NCBI RefSeq assembly: GCF_035594765.1
Contig: NC_085846.1
Span: forward strand, 13,937,190 to 14,001,189
DNA: 64,000 nucleotides
Source of the DNA: Anolis carolinensis
Taxonomy: Eukaryota
Reading direction: 5' to 3'
Made by a program: the position numbers. Positions 46,601-51,467 of this stretch are shown here, in pieces; positions within the stretch are counted from its first letter, which is position 1; every line of letters begins with the position of its first letter.

Positions 46601-49600
46601 GTAAAACCACCTTTTTGCCCCATAAGATAATTGCAGTCCAAAGGAGAAATATTTCCAACTCCTATAATAATGATGGTGAGAAGTTGCCCGCTCACTGGCT
46701 GATTCCTTGCCAGCCAAGCAAAGAGGCAACAATGAAAGTGAAGATGAGGCACAACAGCAGCTTGTGGCAATGGCAGTGAGAAGGCAGGTTGGACAATGGA
46801 GGAGGCCTAGTGAAAATGACACTGCTCAATTTCCTAACAAAAACTCAGAACTAGCCCTATTGTATAGGGGCTGATTTACAAAGGGTATTTTACTCTGGGA
46901 TTAGGCAAAAACCAACAACAACAGTTAAACTGATAAAATATTCATGCAAAGTACTAATTTCAAGAGCCGGTGTGAAAGATATGTGTAGATCCCTTCCTGA
47001 TCTACATATGACCTGATGGCTCAGAATAATATAAGAGATAACTTCACATTAAATTTTGAAATACAAGAGGATGGTCCAAGAACTTTATGATAGGAGTTCA
47101 ATACGAACAATGAAGGGATGGTCACTTTGTTTCTACTCCAGATGTTGTTGGATTATAGCTTCCATCAGCTCTAGGCAGTGTTGAAGAATGTCTGGGGCTG
47201 CAGTCCAAACAACATTGAAAGGGCAAGTAACAGGGAAACTTGCAACTGGTATATATAAGGGAACAGACCCTTCCTGGAGTTGATCTGTACTTTCAAATTT
47301 GAGACCACTTTATCTGTCAAGAGTGTCTTCCTACACAATCCTGGGATTTGTATTCTACACGCCTGAATAAGAATACCAGAGCTTTCTAGCAGAAAACGTA
47401 AAAATCCCTCACCAAACTACTAATCCCAAATTCCATAAAACTGAGTCATGACAGTTAAACATTATTCCACACTGCTGGTCTCCAATTGAAGTTCTGCATG
47501 GGTTTGTGGCTCATCCAGATAAGTCAGTGTCACTTTCTGGGCTTTGGGGAATAGGGGACCCTCCCGAAGCAGCACATGGCAGGAACAGTTCCGCATAGCC
47601 GTTGCCACTGGGTGGAGAAGGGGTGGCAGCAGGGAAGTCCAGACCCACTGGACCTGCCAAGCCTTGGTTTTGGAATGCCTCAAAGTCTGTTCCAGGATTT
47701 CCTGAAGGCAACCCCTCAGGAGGGGCCCCGTCTGCAGGACGGCATACTTCGAAGCGTAACCAGCGGTATCCAGTGCACTTCCGTGCTCCAGGGCAGCTCT
47801 GGATGAGGTGCTGGATGGCTGGGTGGGAGAGCCCAAAGAACTCAGCACCGGATGGCTCCAGTTGGGCAGCACCCACAGCCTCAAGGAGTTGAGTGTGGCA
47901 GGAGTCCGGAGTGGAGCCAGTGACTACACAGCCAGGCTCATCTTCAGGGGCGATCTCGAAGAGTGGCCCAGTACCACCGTCCTTGATCTGGCAAGTATAG
48001 AGGCAGCGGTGAACAGGCCGGCGTGTACTGGCGAAGATCCTGGTGCTGCAATATCCCACAGGGTAGATGGCATTTTCTGTATGGAAACCAGGACGGTCAG
48101 AGACAATTTCACCCAAGCTGTAGACGGTCAGCGGACCCAATGTGATAGGAAAAACTGGCCGGCCAGAAGGATCCAAGGGAAGCGGCGGAACTAGCCTGCG
48201 AATGCCAAGCTCAGATGACACCCTGCGCTTTGATGCCCGCCCATTCTCTTTGCCTTTGCGTTCCCGGCGTGGTTTGCGGATGACCATCTCCTCTGGCGAG
48301 GGCTGCGAAACTGTAGTGACAGATGGCACAGGAGGCTCTTCTTCTGCTAGGGCTTGTGCCTGCAGCAGGCGAGCCAACAAGAACCGGCGCTCTTCACGCA
48401 CACGGAGGTATTTGGCCTCCAGTCTGGCAATCTCATCACACAGGGCTGCATTCTCATAAACCAGCACTTTGGCTGCACGGCACAGACGTCGGAACTTTAG
48501 GCGGTAACGCTCGCCTTGGTTTTTCCGCAGGGTTTTCTTCATTGTAAGATGAGTAATGGAACTGGCAGGAGAATCTAGGAAGGAGAAAGATATCCAACGA
48601 GTGGATATTTAGTTTTGGTTTGTTTGTTTAAATATTTGTTTAAATCCTGACCTCTTACACAGAGCTTCCTAAACTTTTTCCATCTGAATTTATTTTAATC
48701 CAGGCATTATTAGGATATAAAATAGTACAGCTGAAATACAGCTGAAGCCTTTTCTGCAGAGTCCACTGTAGATGCTGCATGTTCAGACACCTTTAATTGT
48801 TGTCAGTTTTTTCAGGACCCCAACATTGCGCTAAGGGGTCAAGACCCACACTTTACTCATAACATATCGGGGAAGCATACAATTAAAACATATTATTTAA
48901 AGCAATGCCAGAAAAAAACCTAAAGCAATAATTTATTTATTTATTTATTTATTATAATATTTATATCCCGCCCTTCTCACCCAACAGGGGACTCAGGGCG
49001 GCTTACAATAAAACACACATATAAAAACTGTACAATACACTATAAATCAGTCAAAAAATTAACTTACATAAGACATTCATAAAACGCATTATAAATACAG
49101 ATAGGCATGTTCAAGTTTAATTTAAGTAAGATAAAAGCATATTAAGAAGCTCACCATATCTTAGCATTCTCTTTATGCCAAAAAGTCAATCAGTTACTAA
49201 AGCAGTGGTTCTTAACATGTGGGTCCCCAGATATTTTGGCCTACAACTCCCAGAAATCCCAGCCAATTTACCAGCTGTTGGGATTTCTGGGAGTTGAATA
49301 CTGGTGTATGCAATTTTCCCCAAAAGGAGTTGAATGCTGGTGTATGCAATTGTTTCCCCAAAACAAGTCATGCTTTTACGAAGAAGTTATGTCATCATTT
49401 TTCAAAAGGTTATGACTTCTAATAAGATCATCTCTTTCCAAAGATCATAAAAGGTTATTGAGATTTCCATTTTCCAAAGAAGTTTATTAACACACACACA
49501 CATTAAAAGACAGGCATATGATTAAAACACATAATAATCATTTGAACCAATGAAATGTAAGTTTGAATCCATAGGTTACAATTGGCTGGGTTACTACATT

Positions 49601-51467
49601 CCCAAACATCTGGAAGACCACTGGGCAATAGTCTGAAAAGAATACAGTTTGAAAACAGAGTTCTCCCACAGCCAGCACCTTTCCCCCTTCTTTGTAGGCC
49701 CCATAATCGCCCCCTCCTCACCACAAAACGGCCCCACCGCTTCCTCCCTTTCGCCTTCTAAGTCAGCAAGCAGGAACCGGAAGTTGCCGTCCACCTTCAG
49801 GCTCCGGGCTGCGACGTCATGTCTGTGAAATCCGTTCCTGTCTCCATGGAGACACCAGGGCTTTCCAAGAACCTGAAGGTACTGAGTTGGCATCTCTTCT
49901 GAGTTTCTTCGCTTTATGCAAATAGAAATTAACTAAATGAAGACACACACACATAAAACCCTGCAAAGTTGAGGACCCTAATAATAATTATTTTTAAATG
50001 TGTGCTGGTTTTATAAGAATTTGACCTTACCTTTGTTCTCTCAGGCCCCTTCCACACAGCTGTATTAAATCCCACATTATCTGCTTTGAACTGGGTTATA
50101 TGGCAGCGTGGATTCAGATGACACAGCTCAAAACAGATATTGTGGATTATCTGCCTTGATATTCTGTGTTATATGGCTGTGTGTGGAATGGCCCTCCTGT
50201 AGTTTTTCCTCACTAGAAGTTGCTTTAATGTTTTTATTTCTAACATATGTAGTTTGTTAAATGTAGTTTTAAATGTATGTTAGTATGTCTGTGTTGCATG
50301 ACAAAAATGATTTGTTCTTTTTGACATTATATTCATATTTTAATAATGTATTTGCTTTGTTTTAACCATATTATGTTTAATGTGTTGTAAAAGGCTTTCA
50401 TGGCCGGAATCTCTGGTTTGCTGTGAGTTTTCTGGGCTGTATGGCCATGTTCCAGAAGCATTCTCTCCTGTCATTTCGTCCACATTATGGCAGGCATCCT
50501 CAAAGTTTGTGAGGTCTTGTCGAAGGCTTTCATGGCCGGGATCACAGGGTTGTTGTATGTCTTTCAGGCTGTGTGGCCATGTTCCAGAAGTATTGCCCAC
50601 ATCTATGGCAGGCATCCTCAGAGGCTGTGAGGCATGGATAAAATAGGCGAGGAAAGGAAAAATATATATCTGTGGAGAGTCCAGGGTATGCCATAGATGG
50701 GGGCGAAATGTCAGGAGAGAATGCTTCTGGAACATGGCCACACAACCCGAAAGACATACAACAACCCTGTTGTGAGATCTGTTGGAAACTAGGCAAGAGG
50801 GATTTATATATTTGTGGAATGCTCAGGGTGGAAGAAAGAACTCTTGTCTGCCTGAGGCAAGTGTGCATGTTGCAATTGCCCACCTTGATTAGCACTGAAT
50901 GGCCTTGCCGCTTCAAAGCCTAAATCCATCCAGTCTGGGAGAATCCTTTGTTCGGAGTTGTTAGCTGGCCCTGATTGTTTCCTGTCTGGAATTCCCATGT
51001 TTTCAAAGTGCTGTTCTTTATTTACTGTCCTGATTTTAGAGTTTTTTAAAATACTGGTAGCCAGATTGTGCTCATTTTCATGGTTTCCTCCTTTCTGTTG
51101 AAATTGTCCACGTGCTTGTGGATTTCAATGGCTTCTCTGTGTAGTCTGACATGGTGGTTGTGAGACTAGTCCAGCATTTCTGTGTTCTCAAATAATATGC
51201 TGTGTCCAGGTTGGTTCATCAAGTGCTCTGCTGTGGCTGACTGCTCTGGTGAAGTGGTCTGCAGTGCCTTTCATGATCCTTGATTCATGTTTGGGTGCTG
51301 CGTTTGAGGACGCCTGCCATAGATATGGGCGAAAAATCAGGAGATAATGCTTCTGGAACATGGCCATAGAGCCCGGAAAACTCACAGCAAGCTAGCTATC
51401 ATCATCTTATCCCAATGCAATAGGAAAAGAGGATGGCTGCTTTCCAGATGGATGGACTCAATTAAGA

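What the first reader, a model, noticed from the sequence alone, without database searches (positions are those of the whole stretch)
47511..49893. Intact intronless TBRG1-like gene with a 5' intron and CpG promoter: candidate functional retrogene
Seen: a 343-codon ORF covering the TBRG1 coiled coil and both FYR domains with no introns, stops or frameshifts. There is a splice acceptor 32 nt before the ATG, a donor at 49722, and ETS and CRE motifs upstream. Known: mammalian TBRG1 (NIAM, an ARF/MDM2/Tip60-linked regulator) is multi-exon and lies outside the CORO1A-BOLA2-SLX1 neighbourhood. Inference: a processed mRNA copy inserted here, recruited a promoter and a 5' exon, and is being maintained, either as a paralog or as a replacement of the parent gene. 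The linker between the coiled coil and FYRN appears shorter than in the human protein. Splicing 49722 to 48574 also keeps an ATG at 49893 in frame (57 codons, then D-SPASSITHLT-MKK), so a novel N-terminal extension is possible.
Basis: partly seen in the sequence, partly recalled or inferred. Interest (0 to 1): 0.72.

Follow-up and report, generated by a model that had tools for sequence, protein, structure and literature searches.

The report
Lizard TBRG1: single-exon, likely retrogene
This is a lizard's only detectable copy of the chromatin-associated gene TBRG1, already annotated in public databases, and its coding part lacks the introns seen in mammals, probably because an ancient reverse-transcribed copy replaced the original gene.

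Summary
A 343-codon ORF (47511-48542, minus strand) carries the INO80E-type N-terminal helix, FYRN and FYRC. A strong acceptor lies 32 nt before the ATG and a moderate donor at 49722.

The gene is not new. The ORF equals database protein P0181. The same ~340-aa protein occurs in 23 named squamate species at 78-96% identity (full-length models 87-96%). I saw no second squamate TBRG1 type.

Mammalian TBRG1 has at least three introns inside the homologous coding region and lies beside PANX3, SIAE and SPA17. Here those intron sites are continuous, and the neighbours are TACO1, zinc-finger genes, SLX1 and a coronin-type exon.

An ancient retrocopy that replaced its parent (an 'orphan retrogene') is the best reading. 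It rests on indirect evidence, because no reptile genomes could be compared. The event may predate the turtle split. The 68-residue N-terminal extension is not conserved. The 'CpG promoter' label is only partly justified.

The parts
47511..48542 (-). Single coding exon segment of TBRG1: 343 codons plus the stop at 47511-47513. INO80E-type helix at 48366-48506, FYRN at 47976-48152, FYRC at 47748-47969.
   Evidence: Identical to database protein P0181.
48543..48574 (-). 32-nt leader of the coding exon, between the acceptor and the main ATG. It reads (D)SPASSITHLT in the extended RefSeq model.
48575..49721 (-). 5' intron of 1147 nt. GT at 49721-49720 and AG at 48576-48575, with 13 of 14 pyrimidines before the AG. 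It is AT-rich and holds dispersed-repeat pieces at 48779-48837, 48939-49021 and 49197-49298.
   Evidence: The junction is the one used by RefSeq model P0178.
49722..49893 (-). Exon 1 as far as the RefSeq CDS shows it; its 5' end is unknown. ATG at 49893 opens 57 codons that are not conserved, so this is most likely 5' UTR. Out-of-frame upstream ATGs at 49847 and 49820 share one frame and end at one TGA.
   Evidence: No Pfam family.
49777..49784 (-). ETS-type motif ACTTCCGG, the only copy in the window.
   Evidence: 1 match, 0.59 expected; 47 of 100 shuffles gave at least one.
49813..49819 (-). CRE-like half-palindrome TGACGTC, 29 bp upstream of the ETS motif.
   Evidence: 4 matches in the window, 1.39 expected.
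47901..48600 (.). The only stretch around the gene that meets CpG-island criteria (GC at least 0.5, observed/expected at least 0.6). It covers the 5' two-thirds of the coding exon.
46489..46494 (-). Candidate poly(A) signal AATAAA, about 1.0 kb past the stop. No A-rich tract follows it. Unverified.
   Evidence: Read.
48455..48456 (-). Site homologous to mammalian intron 1 (..ATVF|ENAA..; here VLVY|ENAA, codons 29/30). Continuous in the window.
48107..48108 (-). Site homologous to the mammalian intron inside FYRN (YSLGE|IITDRP; here YSLGE|IVSDRP, codons 145/146). Continuous in the window.
   Evidence: Dasypus X1, Camelus isoform 4.
47642..47643 (-). Approximate site homologous to the C-terminal intron of mammals and a teleost (..DPIL[PQL]|G..; here about codons 300/301). 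Continuous in the window.
   Evidence: five mammalian isoforms; Solea 423 against 477.

Best explanation
This locus is the lizard ortholog of TBRG1/NIAM. The protein is nuclear and has two parts: an N-terminal helix of the INO80E family, which in mammals ties it to the INO80 chromatin remodeller, and a FYRN+FYRC module.

The transcript has a short 5' exon ending at 49722, a 1.15-kb intron, and one exon that holds the whole conserved 343-codon CDS. The functional product most likely starts at MKK (48542). The 68 extra residues in the RefSeq model are probably 5' UTR.

The gene most likely descends from a processed mRNA copy of a multi-exon TBRG1. That copy inserted beside TACO1 in a zinc-finger-rich region, gained a new 5' exon, intron and promoter, and then replaced the parent gene. 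This makes it an 'orphan retrogene'. The event predates the last common ancestor of living squamates and possibly the squamate-turtle split.

Shown here: the ORF, domains, splice sites, identity to the RefSeq model, orthology, conservation, and absence of three mammalian intron positions.

Inferred: the RNA intermediate, the loss of the parent gene, and the timing.
For: 1. Identity and orthology. In the tree (31 rows) the ORF sits in a 100/100 squamate clade, sister (100/99) to turtles plus the unnamed P0011, inside vertebrate TBRG1.

2. Same gene as annotated. P0181 equals the ORF. P0178 (XP_016851536.2, Anolis carolinensis, 411 aa) equals the exon-1 peptide plus DSPASSITHLT plus the ORF.

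3. Introns missing.
- Mouse exon 1 holds the ATG and only 48 N-terminal residues (passages of PMC4231569). This matches an 18-aa insert in Chinchilla X6 at ATVF|ENAA.
- Dasypus X1 (43-aa insert, starting VS and ending NQ) and Camelus isoform 4 mark YSLGE|IITDRP.
- Five mammalian isoforms and a Solea pair diverge after DPILx/EHITG.
- The window ORF is continuous across all three sites.

4. Different neighbourhood.
- The Ictidomys model P0042 runs from TBRG1 into SPA17 (8j07_K, E 1.6e-27).
- Human chr11 and cattle chr29 gene lists put TBRG1 with PANX3, SIAE and SPA17 (passages).
- The window has TACO1 exons, SCAN/KRAB/C2H2 genes, SLX1 and a coronin-type exon. It has no other TBRG1-like sequence: the self-hit is the only tblastn hit below E 7.

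5. New 5' intron. In mouse the ATG is in exon 1. The lizard intron lies in the leader, at a position with no mammalian counterpart, while the first mammalian CDS intron, 87 nt into the ORF, is absent. Gain of 5' exons is a documented route for retrogenes to reach promoters (passages of PMC4772013).

6. Function retained.
- Identity is 87-96% to 10 named full-length squamate models and 81% to the unnamed P0006, including geckos at 88-89%. Echidna against horse is 79%.
- Only 16 columns are fixed differently in all 12 squamates against at least 17 of 18 non-sauropsids. Most changes are conservative, such as K>R and F<>Y.

7. Sole copy. None of the best 120 hits of either search is a second squamate type (120 of 477, 120 of 454).

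8. Rate pattern. The squamate stem branch is 0.88 changes per site, against 0.04-0.32 for branches inside the clade. This fits a burst of change followed by constraint.
Against: - No poly(A) tail remnant and no flanking direct repeats. This is expected after roughly 200 million years, but it means no hallmark of retroposition survives.
- Two of the three intron positions are inferred from protein isoforms, not from gene models. They are known for mammals, and one for a teleost, not for any reptile or amphibian.
- I could not fetch any eukaryotic genome. The gene structure in other lizards, tuatara, turtles, crocodilians and birds is untested. The ancestral location of TBRG1 is untested. The absence of a relic parent near SIAE/SPA17 in squamates is untested.
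- The long sauropsid stem (0.40) and the turtle branches show that fast evolution is not specific to squamates.
- Only the best 120 of 454-477 hits were visible in each search, so a divergent second copy could have been missed.
- dN/dS could not be computed, because no orthologous DNA was available.
Confidence: 0.6

Rival explanations
1. No retroposition to a new site. The ancestral multi-exon gene lost its CDS introns in place, by recombination with its own cDNA or one at a time. Its present neighbours result from ordinary chromosome rearrangement since the split from mammals.
For: - No retroposition hallmark is left.
- The ancestral location was never polarised with an outgroup.
- Turtle TBRG1 also lies among zinc-finger genes (P0210, P0219). 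That arrangement could simply be the sauropsid one.
Against: - All three testable CDS intron sites are gone, including the most 5' one at codon 29/30. cDNA-mediated loss usually spares 5' introns (established knowledge, recalled).
- An intron exists instead at a new place in the leader.
- Both flanks differ from the mammalian ones.
- This reading needs three separate events where retroposition needs one.
Confidence: 0.2
2. The intronless gene is an extra paralog, and a multi-exon parent TBRG1 still exists elsewhere in squamate genomes.
For: - Only the best 120 hits of each search were visible.
- Sphaerodactylus has a 166-aa model named 'TBRG1-like' (P0188).
Against: - All named squamate TBRG1 proteins seen, from 23 species, are of the one type.
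- P0188 carries squamate-type residues: it shares FEIAPEDEPGC and the shortened AAQLEP loop with the window protein.
- With a turtle query, no squamate protein exceeded 62% identity.
Confidence: 0.08
3. The 411-aa protein that starts at ATG 49893 is the real product, giving this species a novel N-terminal extension.
For: - RefSeq models it (P0178).
- The frame is open across the junction.
- The ATG has a purine at position -3.
Against: - 0 of 11 N-terminal extensions of other lizard and turtle models resemble the 57-aa peptide at E up to 10.
- It matches no Pfam family.
- The Anolis sagrei, Sceloporus, Podarcis and Tiliqua models start at MKK.
- The ETS and CRE motifs lie downstream of this ATG, so some transcription may begin after it.
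Confidence: 0.1
4. A young processed pseudogene that happens still to be open.
For: None beyond the absence of introns.
Against: - Orthologs with the same length and 78-96% identity occur across 23 named squamate species.
- Substitutions at conserved columns are conservative.
- A stop-free run of this length has a chance of about 4e-6.
Confidence: 0.01

Closest known systems
Mammalian TBRG1 / NIAM (FYR domain structure 2wzo)
   Same: - Same three-part architecture: INO80E-type N-terminal helix, FYRN and FYRC.
- The FYR domain aligns end to end with 2wzo_A (E 2.4e-60).
- It falls inside the TBRG1 tree.
- In mammals NIAM co-purifies with all INO80 subunits and binds Myst2 (passages of PMC5557939). 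It is predicted to contact INO80, TFPT, NFRKB and INO80E through its long N-terminal helix (passages of bioRxiv 10.1101/2024.10.01.615885).
   Different: - 55% identity to horse.
- Linker of 70 residues against 101.
- A 6-residue deletion in the FYRC loop, and no 21-residue N-terminal leader.
- CDS in one exon, against at least four exons in mammals.
- Different chromosomal neighbours.
Orphan retrogenes (retrocopies that replaced their parents, for example RNF113A, MARS2, TRMT12)
   Same: - Intronless CDS with no parent copy detected, and strong conservation.
- A gained 5' exon and a CpG-enriched promoter region.
- Passages of PMC4772013 and PMC5470649 describe 10-25 such genes in human, their exon gain and their CpG-associated promoters.
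   Different: - Those cases are mammalian and were shown with genome-wide parent searches, dN/dS and expression data.
- Here the lineage is squamate, perhaps sauropsid. Loss of the parent and the selection regime are inferred from protein data only.
Turtle TBRG1 (for example Caretta caretta X1-X3, 361-414 aa)
   Same: - Sister group in the tree, 62-64% identical.
- Starts at MKK. The listed RefSeq isoforms differ only upstream of MKK (two longer fused gene models, P0210 and P0219, are the exception). One-residue X1/X2 differences lie 10-15 codons before the ATG, as an alternative acceptor would give.
- Flanked by C2H2 zinc-finger genes in the fused models P0210 and P0219.
   Different: - It keeps the 6-residue FYRC loop and an acidic C-terminal stretch.
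- Its leader sequence is not alignable with the lizard one.
- Its exon structure is unknown to me.
- The flanking zinc-finger genes match the window's only through generic finger repeats.
INO80E (INO80 complex subunit E)
   Same: Shares the N-terminal helix family PF24237 (33.3 bits).
   Different: From recall, not checked by any search: INO80E has no FYRN or FYRC. The window protein groups with TBRG1.

Membership tests
TBRG1/NIAM orthologs | FYRN immediately followed by FYRC, forming one FYR module | tested here: met
   Pfam FYRN at 131-189 (E 5.1e-26) and FYRC at 192-265 (E 5.7e-19). Full-length match to 2wzo_A (E 2.4e-60).
TBRG1/NIAM orthologs | N-terminal long helix of the INO80E family | tested here: met
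   PF24237 at 13-59, 33.3 bits against a cut-off of 27.8. The model has a helix at 3-67 with pLDDT block means 70-91 for residues 11-70 (55 for residues 1-10).
TBRG1/NIAM orthologs | Groups with TBRG1 of other vertebrates at the expected place in a tree | tested here: met
   Squamate clade 100/100, sister to turtles 100/99, inside tetrapod TBRG1. 31 rows, 411 columns.
TBRG1/NIAM orthologs | Association with INO80, ARF/MDM2 and Tip60/Myst2 | not testable with these tools
   Known only for mammals (passages). No complex prediction was run.
Processed retrogene | Lacks the introns that interrupt the parent-type CDS | tested here: met
   Three mammalian boundaries (one also in a teleost) are continuous in the ORF. 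Two are inferred from isoforms. The first is also supported by the mouse targeting paper.
Processed retrogene | Lies at a locus not syntenic with the parent gene | tested here: inconclusive
   The neighbours differ from the mammalian PANX3/SIAE/SPA17 set. The ancestral sauropsid location could not be established.
Processed retrogene | Poly(A) tract at the 3' end and flanking target-site duplications | tested here: not met
   No A-rich tract downstream of the stop or of the candidate AATAAA. Self-comparison shows no flanking repeats. Decay is expected for an event this old.
Orphan retrogene (parent replaced) | No functional parent gene in the same genome | tested here: inconclusive
   No second squamate TBRG1 type among the best 120 of 477 and of 454 hits or in the clusters read. 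No genome-level search was possible.
Orphan retrogene (parent replaced) | Purifying selection on the CDS | tested here: inconclusive
   Protein identity of 87-96% across the named full-length squamate models aligned and conservative substitutions argue for it. dN/dS needs orthologous DNA, which I did not have.
CpG-island promoter | At least 200 bp with GC of at least 0.5 and CpG observed/expected of at least 0.6 at the start site | tested here: not met
   Around exon 1 no 300-bp window has both: 49601-49900 has GC 0.54 and o/e 0.50, and 49701-50000 has GC 0.48 and o/e 0.68. The criteria are met only at 47901-48600, in the coding exon.

The most novel reading that the evidence does not exclude
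One retroposition in the stem of sauropsids, more than about 280 million years ago, replaced multi-exon TBRG1. Lizard and turtle TBRG1 are then the same very old orphan retrogene, sharing its gained 5' leader intron and its home in a zinc-finger gene cluster. The archosaur copy was later lost or became hard to detect: no named bird or crocodilian TBRG1 appeared among the best 120 hits of either search. This would be among the oldest parent-replacing retrogenes described. It would also be a natural experiment on rebuilding the regulation of an INO80-associated factor.
Probability: 0.3. Interest if true: 0.5.

Novelty: new member of a known kind. Interest (0 to 1): 0.35.

Why it matters
TBRG1/NIAM is a little-studied partner of the INO80 remodeller and of the ARF-MDM2-p53 pathway.

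[quoted passage not shown] It also offers a natural test of which parts of the protein are indispensable. The helix and the FYR core are kept. About 30 linker residues, a FYRC loop and the mammalian N-terminal leader are dispensable.

In practice, the finding warns that the 411-aa RefSeq product for this species probably over-extends the N-terminus.

The gene itself is already annotated, so the gain is evolutionary interpretation rather than discovery of a new element.

Tried and rejected
- Structure prediction from a 33-row alignment gave mean pLDDT 46.6 and pTM 0.28. Only the N-terminal helix was confident. I therefore ran no fold search and rely on the sequence match to 2wzo.
- Poly(A) remnant and target-site duplications: none seen.
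- Orthology of flanking genes between the turtle fused models and the window: tblastn of four pieces of P0210 gave only generic zinc-finger matches to several window zinc-finger genes. The non-finger heads did not match. No synteny claim follows.
- Conservation of the exon-1 peptide: first 1 weak hit (E 51) against 5 extensions, then 0 of 11 at E up to 10. No Pfam family.
- A second TBRG1-like sequence in the window: none. All other tblastn hits had E of at least 7.
- Literature: TBRG1 with 'retrogene' gave 1 paper, on an unrelated topic judging from the listing alone. For TBRG1 with intronless, retrocopy, retroposition, Anolis or squamate, 0 of the 20 listed papers contain TBRG1. For TBRG1 with bird gene-loss terms, 0 of 10 listed contain TBRG1. 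I found no printed statement that squamate TBRG1 is a retrogene. Supplementary gene lists were closed, and those of PMC4290089 and PMC4772013 might bear on this.
- BOLA2: I recognised no ORF of at least 45 aa in 9-16.5 kb by eye. It was not formally tested.
- Young pseudogene: rejected.
- None could supply gene structures or synteny.

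
Full report
WHAT IS THERE

On the minus strand an ATG at 48542 opens 343 codons that end at 47511. With the CDS base composition (GC 0.573), a stop-free run of that length has a chance of about 4e-6 (my arithmetic).

Pfam finds three domains:
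- an INO80E-type N-terminal domain at aa 13-59 (33.3 bits, cut-off 27.8);
- FYRN at 131-189 (E 5.1e-26);
- FYRC at 192-265 (E 5.7e-19).

Residues 127-266 align over the full length of the solved human TBRG1 FYR domain, 2wzo_A (E 2.4e-60). An AlphaFold model from a 33-row alignment was confident only for the N-terminal helix at 3-67. Its overall pLDDT was 46.6, so I made no structural comparison.

SPLICE MODEL

The sequence tctttctccttcctag|a puts an acceptor AG at 48576-48575, and the exon starts at 48574, 32 nt before the ATG. Of 85 AG dinucleotides between 48543 and 50100, it is the only one preceded by at least 12 of 14 pyrimidines.

The donor after 49722 (GTG|GTGAGG) matches 6 of 9 consensus positions. 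20 of 92 GT sites do as well or better, and a better-scoring site (AAG|GTAAGG, 8 of 9) lies at 50031. Taken alone, the donor is only plausible.

I searched the two exons separately and made no joined sequence. Cluster look-up then showed two things:
- The ORF is identical to database protein P0181.

The window is lizard sequence, not human.

PROMOTER CLAIM

ACTTCCGG occurs once in the 64 kb, at 49777-49784 (0.59 expected). TGACGTC lies 29 bp away at 49813-49819 (4 in the window, 1.39 expected). Both sit upstream of the donor but downstream of ATG 49893, which places them inside the RefSeq exon 1.

CpG observed/expected is 0.50-0.68 around exon 1, against 0.29 for the whole window. No 300-bp window there reaches both GC 0.5 and o/e 0.6. 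The only island-like stretch is 47901-48600, inside the coding exon. 'CpG promoter' is thus partly right.

N-TERMINAL EXTENSION

The 57-residue exon-1 peptide has no Pfam family. It resembles none of 11 N-terminal extensions found in other lizard and turtle gene models at E up to 10. An earlier test against 5 of them gave one hit, at E 51.

The models for Anolis sagrei, Sceloporus, Podarcis raffonei, Tiliqua and many others are 340 aa and start at MKK. I read the extension as 5' UTR that happens to be open in this species.

RELATIVES

The first search gave 477 hits, of which the best 120 were listed. The nearest are lizard proteins that NCBI names TBRG1:
- Sceloporus 92%, Podarcis 90%, Tiliqua 89%, Phrynocephalus 88%, Lerista 78%;
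- then turtles at 64%;
- everything else is near 50%.

Cluster members add geckos, skink relatives, lacertids, an amphisbaenian, Varanus, Elgaria, Pogona and two Anolis species. That makes 23 named squamate species in all. No snake was among those listed.

With a turtle protein as query (454 hits, best 120 listed), no squamate protein was closer than 62%. No second squamate type appeared.

In a maximum-likelihood tree of 31 proteins:
- squamates form a 100/100 clade;
- that clade is sister (100/99) to turtles plus the unnamed P0011;
- the squamate stem is 0.88 changes per site, against 0.04-0.32 for branches inside the clade;
- the sauropsid stem is 0.40.

Identity between the window protein and geckos is 88-89%, whereas echidna against horse is 79%.

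Only 16 columns are fixed differently in all 12 squamates against at least 17 of 18 non-sauropsid sequences. Most of these changes are conservative.

The gene is therefore old, unique in squamates as far as I could see, and constrained.

IS IT A RETROGENE?

No eukaryotic genome collection was available, so the evidence is indirect. It has three strands.

1. Mammalian TBRG1 is multi-exon.
- The mouse targeting paper states that exon 1 contains the ATG and that a trap in intron 1 leaves 48 N-terminal residues (passages of PMC4231569).
- Aligning annotated isoforms marks this same boundary. Chinchilla X6 carries an 18-residue insert at ATVF|ENAA.
- A second boundary lies inside FYRN. Dasypus X1 has a 43-residue insert that begins VS and ends NQ, as a retained GTRAGT...CAG intron would read. 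Camelus isoform 4 has a shorter one.
- A third lies near the C-terminus. Marmota X5, Ictidomys, Chinchilla X6, Camelus isoform 4 and Erinaceus X2 all diverge after DPILx. Two Solea forms diverge at the same place.
- The window ORF runs straight through all three sites (codons 29/30, 145/146 and about 300/301).

2. The neighbourhood differs.
- The Ictidomys model continues from TBRG1 into a tail that matches Sp17 (8j07_K, E 1.6e-27).
- Gene lists for human chr11 and cattle chr29 place TBRG1 with PANX3, SIAE, SPA17, NRGN and VSIG2 (passages).
- The window holds a coronin-type WD40 exon at 3.2 kb and SLX1 at 13.0-14.8 kb.
- It holds SCAN, KRAB and C2H2 genes at 19.7-33.8 kb, and TACO1 exons at 39.6 and 44.3 kb, convergent with TBRG1.
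- Another zinc-finger gene lies at 57.4-59.8 kb.

3. The only intron is in the leader.
- Mouse has no intron at that position, because its ATG is in exon 1.
- Gain of 5' exons to reach a promoter is the documented path by which retrocopies mature. Retrocopies that replace their parents ('orphan retrogenes') are a known small class (passages of PMC4772013 and PMC5470649).

Against this reading:
- There is no poly(A) remnant or target-site duplication.
- The intron positions are known for mammals only, plus one for a teleost.
- The ancestral locus is not polarised by an outgroup.

The rival is intron loss in place followed by rearrangement. It needs loss of every CDS intron including the most 5' one, gain of a leader intron, and relocation of both flanks. 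I give it 0.2, against 0.6 for retroposition with parent replacement.

TIMING

The event predates crown squamates, because geckos and iguanians share the 340-aa form. It may predate the turtle split.
- Turtle proteins also start at MKK.
- The listed turtle RefSeq isoforms, from more than 15 species, differ only upstream of MKK. Two longer fused gene models (P0210, P0219) are the exception.
- X1/X2 pairs differ by a single residue 10-15 codons before the ATG, as alternative acceptors would give.
- Fused gene models show C2H2 genes on both sides of turtle TBRG1.

I could not show that those zinc-finger genes are orthologous to the window's, because only generic finger matches appeared. The leader sequences are not alignable either.

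FUNCTION

By homology, the product is a nuclear protein whose N-terminal helix docks on the INO80 complex.
- In mouse cells NIAM co-purifies with all INO80 subunits.
- A human interactome model has the helix contacting INO80, TFPT, NFRKB and INO80E.
- The role of the FYR module is not defined.

The lizard protein keeps both parts. It has a 70-residue linker instead of 101 and lacks a 6-residue FYRC loop.

WHAT STAYED UNCHECKED
- Gene structures and synteny in any other reptile, bird or amphibian.
- dN/dS.
- Expression, start sites and initiation codon.
- BOLA2.
- Supplementary tables of the retrogene and bird-gene-loss papers, which were closed.
- The two N runs, which were left as they are.

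VERDICT

The gene is already annotated as TBRG1. The retrogene origin is a reasonable and apparently unpublished inference: searches found nothing on it. The case belongs to a known kind.

Noticed in passing
window 19768-33849 (-) and 57360-59801 (+): A cluster of zinc-finger genes. SCAN-domain exons at 22472-23443 and 32893-33849. A KRAB exon at 31772-32047. C2H2 arrays at 19768-20280, 28519-29940 and 57360-59801, the last an 813-aa open frame.
   Followed up: partly
window 39615-39941 and 44286-44663 (+): TACO1 exons (Pfam TACO1_YebC_N and Transcrip_reg), convergent with TBRG1. The two 3' ends may lie within about 1 kb of each other or overlap. A TGACGTC site at 39020-39026 sits just upstream of the first TACO1 exon.
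   Followed up: partly
window 3235-3534 (+) and 13026-14847 (+): A coronin-type WD40_4 exon and SLX1 exons (GIY-YIG E 1.1e-07, SLX1_C E 6.3e-15).
   Followed up: partly
window 25438-25577 and 25880-26022: Two runs of N, 140 and 143 bases. Left as they are.
   Followed up: no
window 49197-49298, 48939-49021, 48779-48837 and 50043-50196: Dispersed-repeat pieces inside and just upstream of the 5' intron. The 49197-49298 piece has up to 7 other copies in the window. 48939-49021 ends in an (AAAT)n-like tail typical of a SINE 3' end.
   Followed up: partly
window 50031: A donor-like site, AAG|GTAAGG (8 of 9), scores better than the annotated donor at 49722. It could serve an alternative, more upstream first exon.
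   Followed up: no
window 47511-47522: The window protein ends ...SPESDTDLSG. All other lizard models seen, including Anolis sagrei, end at ...SPESDTD. This is a 3-codon extension from a shifted stop in this species.
   Followed up: partly
related proteins P0013, P0130, P0141, P0151 and the teleosts: Shark, ray-finned fish, coelacanth and lungfish TBRG1 carry an N-terminal HARE-HTH domain (PF05066). All tetrapod proteins seen lack it. Teleost isoforms differ by a 21-residue cassette inside that domain.
   Followed up: partly
lists: No named bird or crocodilian TBRG1 appears among the best 120 hits of either search, although mammals, amphibians and fish do. The unnamed P0011 (83.5% identical to Caretta over the alignment) groups with turtles. 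Archosaurs may lack the gene, or theirs may be too divergent to rank, or the listing limit may hide it.
   Followed up: partly
related proteins P0210 (Malaclemys, 1288 aa) and P0219 (Caretta, 871 aa): Fused gene models join turtle TBRG1 to C2H2 zinc-finger genes. The join leaves TBRG1 from within its C-terminal coding region, after ...FLSRPxx, which implies a cryptic donor in the last exon.
   Followed up: partly
related protein P0042 (Ictidomys, 440 aa): A read-through model joins TBRG1 to SPA17 at the C-terminal exon boundary.
   Followed up: yes
window 49845-49847 and 49818-49820 (-): Two upstream ATGs in exon 1 share one frame. That frame differs from the 49893 frame and ends at one TGA after 16 and 7 codons respectively (read). 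They are possible short upstream ORFs if transcription starts above them.
   Followed up: no
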